Positions 52,194 through 52,758 of a stretch of 64,000 nt of DNA are shown here, in pieces. The stretch spans positions 5,667,014-5,731,013 of the forward strand of contig NC_081361.1 of the NCBI RefSeq assembly GCF_030684315.1. Reading direction: 5' to 3'. Each line of letters starts with the position of its first letter. The stretch's first letter is position 1. This DNA is from Stegostoma tigrinum (lineage: Eukaryota). The notes below the pieces were generated by a model that was not told the DNA's origin, made no database searches, and saw nothing but the letters and a program-made list of their open reading frames with translations. The position numbers and the translations under genes were made by a program.

Positions 52194-52758
52194 ATGATTT
52201 CACACATACAGCTGATCTGGCCTCTGGCATTCTGTGTCGCAGGTACAAATCTCTCTCCTTCCACCTTGAATCTTTAGTTCCTCTCCATTTCACTCCAATT
52301 CCACTGACTTGTGATTGAAGGGAAAATGCTGAAACCAGAGGAATGCTCAGTGTCTCCAACAATCTCTCATTTGACAGTATCTTTCTGTGACTGTTCTGAC
52401 TTCACGGTGTTTCTCTCTGACCCCTCAGGTATCAGTGGGGATATCACCATGAGCCAGTCTCCCCCAGTGCTGTCAGTGGGAGTGGGCCAGACCGCAACCA
52501 TCACCTGTACGGCCAATCAAGATATTAGCGATGATGTTTCCTGGTACCAGCAGCGAGAAAGACAAAAACCCTCTCTCCTGATCTATGAAGCAACGAATCG
52601 ATTCACAGGAGTCTCTGAGTGATTCAGTGGCAGAAGATCAGGGGCCAGTTTCACCCTGACAATCTGCAACGTTCAGAATGAGGATGTCACTGACTATTAC
52701 TGTAGGCAGGATTACAGCTAAGCCTATACTTTTGCTAAAGGAACCAAGCTCCGACTGA
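52194..52758 (+). pseudogene. IGKV: Germline-joined Ig kappa-type leader + VJ pseudogene (cluster 2)
   Basis: Leader 52194-52242, a 186-bp intron and a fused VJ exon 52429-52758 (DITMSQSPP...TGVSE*FSG...[21 protein letters not shown]) with a GTAAGT donor. There is no RSS between V and J. Stops are TGA 52620-52622 and TAA 52719-52721. Confidence 0.95.

What the first reader, a model, noticed from the sequence alone, without database searches (positions are those of the whole stretch)
52194..52758. Germline-joined VJ kappa gene next to an unrearranged paralogue
Seen: cluster 2 has V fused in frame to J with no RSS. The leader intron is retained (186 bp, the same length as in cluster 1), so it is not a retrocopy. 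The fused exon is 330 nt against 298+35=333 nt for V+J of cluster 1. Relative to cluster 1, the 476-bp RSS-bounded interval plus a net 3 nt is missing, with no obvious N addition (...GCC TA|T ACT TTT vs V end ...ACC TA and J start G TTT ACG TTC). Known: germline-joined Ig genes occur in cartilaginous fish, including NS4 kappa, and are attributed to RAG activity in germ cells. Inference: this is a heritable RAG coding joint, with a split paralogue in cis that models the pre-join state.
Basis: partly seen in the sequence, partly recalled or inferred. Interest (0 to 1): 0.8.

Follow-up and report, generated by a model that had tools for sequence, protein, structure and literature searches.

The report
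Pre-joined but dead shark antibody gene
One of six copies of a shark antibody light-chain gene has its V and J pieces already fused in the genome, likely by the immune cutting enzyme RAG acting in egg or sperm cells, but it carries three stop codons, and such fused genes were described in sharks in 2000, so this is an ordinary example.

Summary
Exon 52429-52758 fuses a full-length kappa (NS4-type) V to a J lacking 3 nt. No RSS remains, and the 186-bp leader intron is kept. The assembly shows six kappa clusters: five are split with 12/23 RSS, and only this one (K2) is joined. The cut is flush with the V heptamer border and 3-5 nt into J with no N bases, the signature of a RAG coding joint. Contigs from two sequencing samples bridge the same junction, so it is very probably germline, though tissue and individuals are not on record.

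Cluster 1 is not its closest relative (V differs 15.8%, against 11.4% for K4), and no close split parent exists. There is no hypermutation excess and no reinserted copy of the excised piece.

Lee et al. 2000 described the same situation in nurse shark, including joined pseudogenes and closer split/joined pairs. Verdict: a real feature, a new member of a known kind, low interest.

The parts
52080..52087 (+). octamer-like promoter element of K2; one further substitution against the element shared by the other five clusters
   Evidence: the octamer label is recalled
52128..52133 (+). TATA-like box of K2
52194..52242 (+). K2 leader exon (MISHIQLIWPLAFCVA), open
52243..52428 (+). K2 leader intron, 186 bp, GT..AG
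   Evidence: run X5 shows spliced joints at the homologous place
52429..52726 (+). V part of the fused exon, 298 nt, ending exactly where the 12-RSS heptamer begins in split clusters
52620..52622 (+). premature TGA in FR3 (CGA or CGC in the four comparable split clusters)
   Evidence: inside 0-difference contigs 52486-52700 of X1 and X2
52719..52721 (+). premature TAA in CDR3 (TAT or TAC in the five split clusters)
52726..52727 (+). VJ coding joint: V untrimmed and J minus 3 nt, or V plus 1-2 P nucleotides and J minus 4-5 nt; no N bases
   Evidence: bridged by contigs in X1 and X2
52727..52758 (+). J part of the fused exon, 32 nt (YTFAKGTKLRL; first Gly of FGXG changed to Ala), then GT donor
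23277..23325 (-). K1 (split cluster) leader exon
22793..23090 (-). K1 V segment, 298 nt, open frame
22765..22792 (-). K1 12-spacer RSS, consensus heptamer and nonamer
22317..22355 (+). K1 23-spacer RSS
22282..22316 (-). K1 J segment, 35 nt
8284..8612 (-). K1 kappa C exon, open

Best explanation
K2 is a shark kappa light-chain cluster whose V and J are fused in the assembled genome without recombination signals, likely joined by RAG acting in a germ cell or early embryo of an ancestor, and it carries three stop codons that make it a predicted pseudogene. Shown: the fusion, its geometry, the retained leader intron and genomic flanks, the five split paralogues, the stops, and the same junction in contigs of two samples. 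Inferred from established V(D)J chemistry: RAG paired a 12- and a 23-RSS inside the one cluster and cut at both heptamers; the hairpin ends were opened, the J end lost 3-5 nt, and the ends were ligated without TdT additions; the roughly 0.5-kb signal piece was lost. Inferred: the allele spread, and the cluster then or earlier drifted without selection and acquired its nonsense mutations. The order of join and inactivation is not known.
For: The V end is flush with the heptamer position and J is 3 nt short, with no extra bases. 5 of 5 paralogues carry 12/23 RSS pairs, one with a variant J heptamer. Both flanks stay collinear with split clusters. X1 record 7 (52671-52944, 1 other letter, no gap) and X2 record 14 (52674-52944, 1 other letter, no gap) bridge the joint. 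K2-private changes are 20 of 330 in VJ against 43 of 1037 in non-coding flanks (Fisher p=0.17), so there is no hypermutation excess. 8 of 11 K2-private C-exon changes alter the protein, matching the 70-75% expected without selection. The C stop is also on contig C770, a 99.92% second copy of the C region. PMC2193156 reports the same junction style: RSS fully excised, J-side deletion, little TdT.
Against: Tissue and individual of X1 and X2 are not on record; they share one study and may include the assembly's source. Contigs show presence, not absence, of a split allele. C770 stops about 8 kb short of the VJ exon. No P nucleotide is provable, because the bases that would be P also fit the J template. 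The parent's own J end is unknown. The C-exon counts are small, and split cluster K3 has 5 of 10 protein-changing. RAG action itself is inferred from geometry only.
Confidence: 0.87

Rival explanations
1. A somatic lymphocyte rearrangement, or an assembly artefact, was captured in the assembly.
For: The tissue behind the assembly and behind runs X1 and X2 is not on record. C770 does not reach the junction.
Against: The same junction lies inside single ungapped contigs in two samples. No split K2-type V was found among 9 of 9 scored matches in the assembly, and the interval occurs only 5 times. A clone with a triple-stop light chain has no evident reason to dominate.
Confidence: 0.04
2. An ordinary deletion (replication slip or microhomology repair) removed the interval without RAG.
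For: The intervals contain GA repeats and vary from 476 to 587 bp among clusters.
Against: The ends sit at 0 and 3-5 nt from the heptamer borders (rough chance 2e-5). The one 3-nt microhomology spanning the V border and the J start would give a 328-nt exon, not 330 (read from the sequences).
Confidence: 0.04
3. The germline cluster was overwritten by homologous recombination with a rearranged template (unspliced transcript or lymphocyte DNA).
For: Sites that K2 shares with a single paralogue are scattered over K1, K3, K4, K5 and K6, so exchange between clusters or parallel change has occurred.
Against: No N bases and no mutation excess in VJ, whereas somatic NS4 joints show probable N regions (PMC2193156). 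No known route for it.
Confidence: 0.03
4. K2 is a relic of an unsplit ancestral V gene, and the split clusters arose by RSS insertion.
For: None specific.
Against: K2 nests with K4 on the C side (98/96, midpoint root). It is 3 nt shorter than V+J of the split clusters. No 3-5 bp target duplication flanks the intervals. Bamboo-shark homologues P0003, P0004, P0009, P0010 and P0035 run on into RSS-like translation, so they look split.
Confidence: 0.01

Closest known systems
Nurse shark germline-joined NS4 (kappa) genes R4, R7, R18, RE18, R6, R19 (Lee et al. 2000, PMC2193156)
   Same: Same isotype (the paper's leader primer matches 5 of 6 clusters; its J primer has 0-2 mismatches). Same 186-bp leader intron and about 0.5-kb V-J interval. 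Joined and split clusters coexist, the RSS is fully excised, deletion is on the J side, and N addition is slight or absent. Two of the paper's six joined genes are pseudogenes; about 10% of about 50 genes are joined there, against 1 of 6 here.
   Different: Another genome, with only six kappa clusters found. K2 is in register but has three stops, and it has no close split sister (nearest V differs 11.4%, against up to 99% identity in nurse shark). K2 fails the restriction definition of R18 (AclI present, EcoRV not in FR3). Orthology to the other R genes was not tested, as their sequences were not in hand.
Other germline-joined chondrichthyan Ig genes (all lambda clusters; the sigma-2 partner of IgM1gj; PMC4279169, passages)
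   Same: Pre-joined VJ attributed to RAG in germ cells. This genome also holds joined lambda-like genes on C34 and a joined sigma-2-like gene on C60.
   Different: Those are open frames with a proposed neonatal role; K2 cannot encode a full chain.

Membership tests
Ig kappa (NS4/type III) cluster | Single leader-V-J-C cluster | tested here: met
   six V, six J, six C on C10 between 5.67 and 5.90 Mb
Ig kappa (NS4/type III) cluster | 12-spacer RSS on V and 23-spacer RSS on J in split members | tested here: met
   5 of 5 split clusters; K3 has a variant J heptamer
Ig kappa (NS4/type III) cluster | Sequence match to NS4 | tested here: met
   NS4 primers of PMC2193156 match and intron length agrees; hits for the K1 V include proteins named Ig kappa V
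Ig kappa (NS4/type III) cluster | C-domain phylogeny with reference kappa, lambda and sigma chains | not tested
   no reference set in hand
Germline-joined Ig gene | V fused to J in genomic context, introns kept | tested here: met
Germline-joined Ig gene | RSS and interval wholly excised at the heptamer borders | tested here: met
Germline-joined Ig gene | Little or no N addition | tested here: met
   all junction bases are templated by V or J
Germline-joined Ig gene | P nucleotides showing a hairpin intermediate | tested here: inconclusive
   1-2 bases fit either P addition or the J template
Germline-joined Ig gene | Present in non-lymphoid DNA of several individuals | tested here: inconclusive
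   bridged in 2 of 4 runs laid (X1, X2; two samples of one study; tissue not on record); not shown bridged in X5 or X8
Germline-joined Ig gene | Derived from split genes | tested here: met
   nests with split K4 on the C side, unresolved on the V and J sides, no outgroup root; no target-site duplication
Functional germline-joined receptor (R4/R18, IgM1gj type) | Open VJ and C reading frames | tested here: not met
   stops at 52620, 52719 and in C
Functional germline-joined receptor (R4/R18, IgM1gj type) | Expression in neonates | not testable with these tools
   no staged RNA data
Processed pseudogene | Loss of introns and genomic flanks | tested here: not met
   leader intron, promoter and 19-kb J-C intron present
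RAG transposition product | Excised RSS-ended piece reinserted elsewhere | tested here: not met
   unique parts of the interval match only the five split clusters, 5 of 5 candidates in each search

The most novel reading that the evidence does not exclude
The in-frame germline join came first and created a ready-made kappa chain that out-competed the five rearranging clusters in young B cells. Selection then favoured its silencing by nonsense mutation, while it is still weakly transcribed. With only six clusters, finding the split or joined-but-open orthologue in sister species would order join and death and test whether germline joins are selected against.
Probability: 0.12. Interest if true: 0.5.

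Novelty: new member of a known kind. Interest (0 to 1): 0.24.

Why it matters
It adds one more, apparently independent, germline V(D)J event in a shark lineage, which fits the view that RAG occasionally edits the shark germline. It does not bear on the open questions (when and where RAG acts in germ cells, whether excised pieces reinsert, what joined receptors do) better than published cases, because the gene is dead, old and lacks a close split parent. Its practical value is for annotation: five rearranging kappa clusters and one joined pseudogene.

Tried and rejected
(1) Reinsertion of the excised interval: the whole-interval search gave the five clusters plus GA-repeat matches only (40 of 341 candidates scored); the unique parts gave 5 of 5 hits in split clusters.
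(2) Second haplotype: C770 covers extended positions 60879-85494 and misses the VJ exon.
(3) Orthologue in organism B: no bridging contig among those shown, and its downstream contig carries a non-K2 letter at 13 of 14 K2-private sites, so it is not shown to be a K2 orthologue (I used the 17 listed substitutions of its 18 differences).
(4) Hypermutation signature: none.
(5) Joined orthologues among proteins: two searches returned bamboo-shark and catshark kappa V models but no nurse-shark R genes; lengths were limited to about 53-191 aa.
(6) Expression: no RNA holder listed. X5 has no cover beyond 52779; this is not used as evidence.
(7) Contig depths were not used as copy numbers or expression levels.
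(8) Dating: the calibration in PMC2193156 (0.134 changes per site in 180 Myr, functional coding sequence) would turn K2's end branches of 0.034-0.087 into roughly 45-115 Myr. I reject this as a date: it is only an upper bound and mixes coding with non-coding sites.
(9) Earlier scan notes: none found.
(10) Paper searches listed no title or abstract on this locus; most subscription journals are not in the library.

Full report
Setting. The window is G000:C10:5667014-5731013 of a 3.2-Gb assembly. The closest named proteins to the cluster-1 V are bamboo-shark models at 82-85% identity, so the source is a shark. I did not try to identify it further.

Observation. The leader (52194-52242), a 186-bp GT..AG intron and a 330-nt exon (52429-52758) followed by a GT donor are as described. 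The RSS scan finds the consensus 12-RSS at 22792 (minus) and the 23-RSS at 22317 of cluster 1, and nothing at the K2 junction. No 10-mer of any V-J interval lies in 52661-52800. Clusters 1 and 2 are an old inverted duplication; the long collinear blocks are mostly 70-92% identical.

The locus. A DNA search of the assembly (9 of 9 candidates scored) and 200 kb of downstream sequence give six leader-V-J-C clusters. In window-extended coordinates their ATGs are K1 23325(-), K2 52194(+), K3 115342(-), K4 144263(+), K5 199599(-) and K6 224238(+). A motif scan of 30 kb upstream showed no further V, J or C. Five clusters are split, with intervals of 476, 587, 584, 561 and 486 bp bounded by 12- and 23-spacer RSS. 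Only K2 is joined. The NS4 leader primer of PMC2193156 matches 5 of 6 clusters and its J primer has 0-2 mismatches; that paper also gives a 186-bp intron and 502-524 bp intervals. PMC4279169 equates NS4 with kappa.

The joint. K2's V part is 298 nt, exactly the length up to the heptamer in K1, K3, K4 and K5. Its J part lacks the first 3 of 35 nt. All junction bases are templated. The joint reads either as V untrimmed plus J minus 3, or as V plus 1-2 palindromic bases plus J minus 4-5. Both are ordinary coding-end products without TdT (established V(D)J chemistry; the same ambiguity is discussed for R7 in PMC2193156). A uniform-breakpoint null gives about 2e-5, which is rough and not corrected for ascertainment.

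The frame is in register but closed. There is a TGA at 52620, a TAA at 52719 and a TGA at codon 60 of the C exon, about C10:5739212. J also has Ala for the first Gly of FGXG, and the octamer-like element has one further change. Of 11 K2-private substitutions in C, 8 change the protein, against 70-75% expected without selection. The other four full-length clusters have 1 of 3, 5 of 10, 1 of 2 and 2 of 5 (K6 left out for its deletion). The counts are small but fit long neutral drift. The C stop is also on C770, a 24.6-kb contig 99.92% identical to the region, which ends about 8 kb short of VJ.

Germline or somatic. The run search listed 24 runs, of which 5 of organism A hold 46-66% of the words. 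I laid 4 of the 24 (only 8 records per run are shown). X1 (sample S1) has a 274-nt contig over 52671-52944 and X2 (sample S2) a 271-nt contig over 52674-52944, each with one other letter and no gap, so both bridge the joint. Both runs also have a 0-difference contig over 52486-52700, which includes the TGA. The paralogues match that junction stretch only in separate halves. Limits: both samples come from one study, tissue is not on record, either may be the assembly's source, and contigs cannot show absence of a split allele. X5 (a third sample, another study, kind not on record) shows spliced joints at the 186-nt intron and holds three 0-difference pieces that differ from the nearest paralogue by 3, 5 and 13 letters. 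So K2 sequence is present in that sample and may be transcribed, but no bridging record was shown and DNA carry-over is not excluded. X8 (organism B) showed a split J end and no bridge, and its downstream contig is not K2-specific.

Parentage and age. V differs from K4 by 11.4%, K3 12.8%, K5 13.4%, K1 15.8% and K6 24.6%. Trees place K2 with K4 on the C side (98/96) and leave it unresolved on the V and J sides, with end branches of 0.034, 0.057 and 0.087 (six rows, midpoint root). K1 is the longest collinear neighbour but not the nearest sequence, so it models the pre-join state only as any of the five would. K2-private changes are 20 of 330 in VJ and 43 of 1037 in non-coding flanks (p=0.17), so there is no sign of a hypermutated template. 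The join cannot be dated from these data. A join between two same-strand clusters cannot be excluded, but both flanks are collinear with K1 and nothing calls for it.

Excised piece. PMC2193156 asks whether excised DNA is reinserted. The unique parts of the interval match only the five split clusters; other hits of the whole interval are to its GA-rich part. No orphan copy was found.

Context. In 17 stretches chosen around C exons on C34 and C60, all five V/J exons seen on C34 are joined, and on C60 three clusters are split and one is joined with an open exon. Joined light chains are therefore commonplace in this genome. The isotype labels lambda-like and sigma-2-like are from recall, not from a test.

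Literature seen. PMC2193156: parts 1-4, 6 and 7 of 7 of the text (figures not held, so its sequences were not seen). PMC2193153: part 1 of 3. PMC4279169: three passages. All others: search listings only. No supplements were opened.

Verdict. A real, very probably heritable RAG-type coding joint in a kappa pseudogene (confidence 0.87). It is a new member of a kind described in 2000, and less informative than the published cases. Interest 0.24.

Noticed in passing
L050:2480-3010 (G000:C60, about 3472480-3473010): Joined VJ with an open exon in a sigma-2-like light-chain cluster (label recalled), next to three split clusters that are 89-92% identical over the V side. The joint is again V-flush, with J short by 3 nt. 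A better candidate for a functional germline-joined chain than K2.
   Followed up: partly
L052, L054, L056, L058, L059 (G000:C34, 42.47-43.59 Mb): Five of five V/J exons seen are joined, as reported for lambda-type clusters in cartilaginous fish.
   Followed up: partly
L006 and L034 (cluster K6, G000:C10 about 5891250-5899100): Split kappa cluster with a shortened, divergent FR3 (V 281 nt) and a 24-nt deletion in C. It resembles the clade III description in PMC2193156, and bamboo-shark and catshark proteins P0006, P0009 and P0010 share its CDR1 type, so this V lineage looks old.
   Followed up: partly
L003 (cluster K3, G000:C10 about 5781236): The J-side heptamer has a change at its second base, which would be predicted to impair RAG cutting; K3 may not rearrange.
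   Followed up: no
window 52532-52710: K2 sites shared with only one paralogue alternate among K1, K3, K4 and K6 (CDR1 patch like K6, two replacements like K3), hinting at germline exchange between clusters.
   Followed up: partly
G000:C770:1-24626 (L030-L032): Unplaced contig 99.92% identical to the K2 J-C intron and C region; likely a second haplotype or an assembly duplicate.
   Followed up: yes
window 14750-16250: Array of 33-bp repeats in the K1 J-C intron, reduced to a short remnant at the homologous place of K2 (about 58800-58990).
   Followed up: no
window 52239-52594: Run X5, a library with spliced joints, holds K2-specific intron and CDR1 pieces with no differences, a hint of intron-retaining K2 transcripts.
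   Followed up: partly
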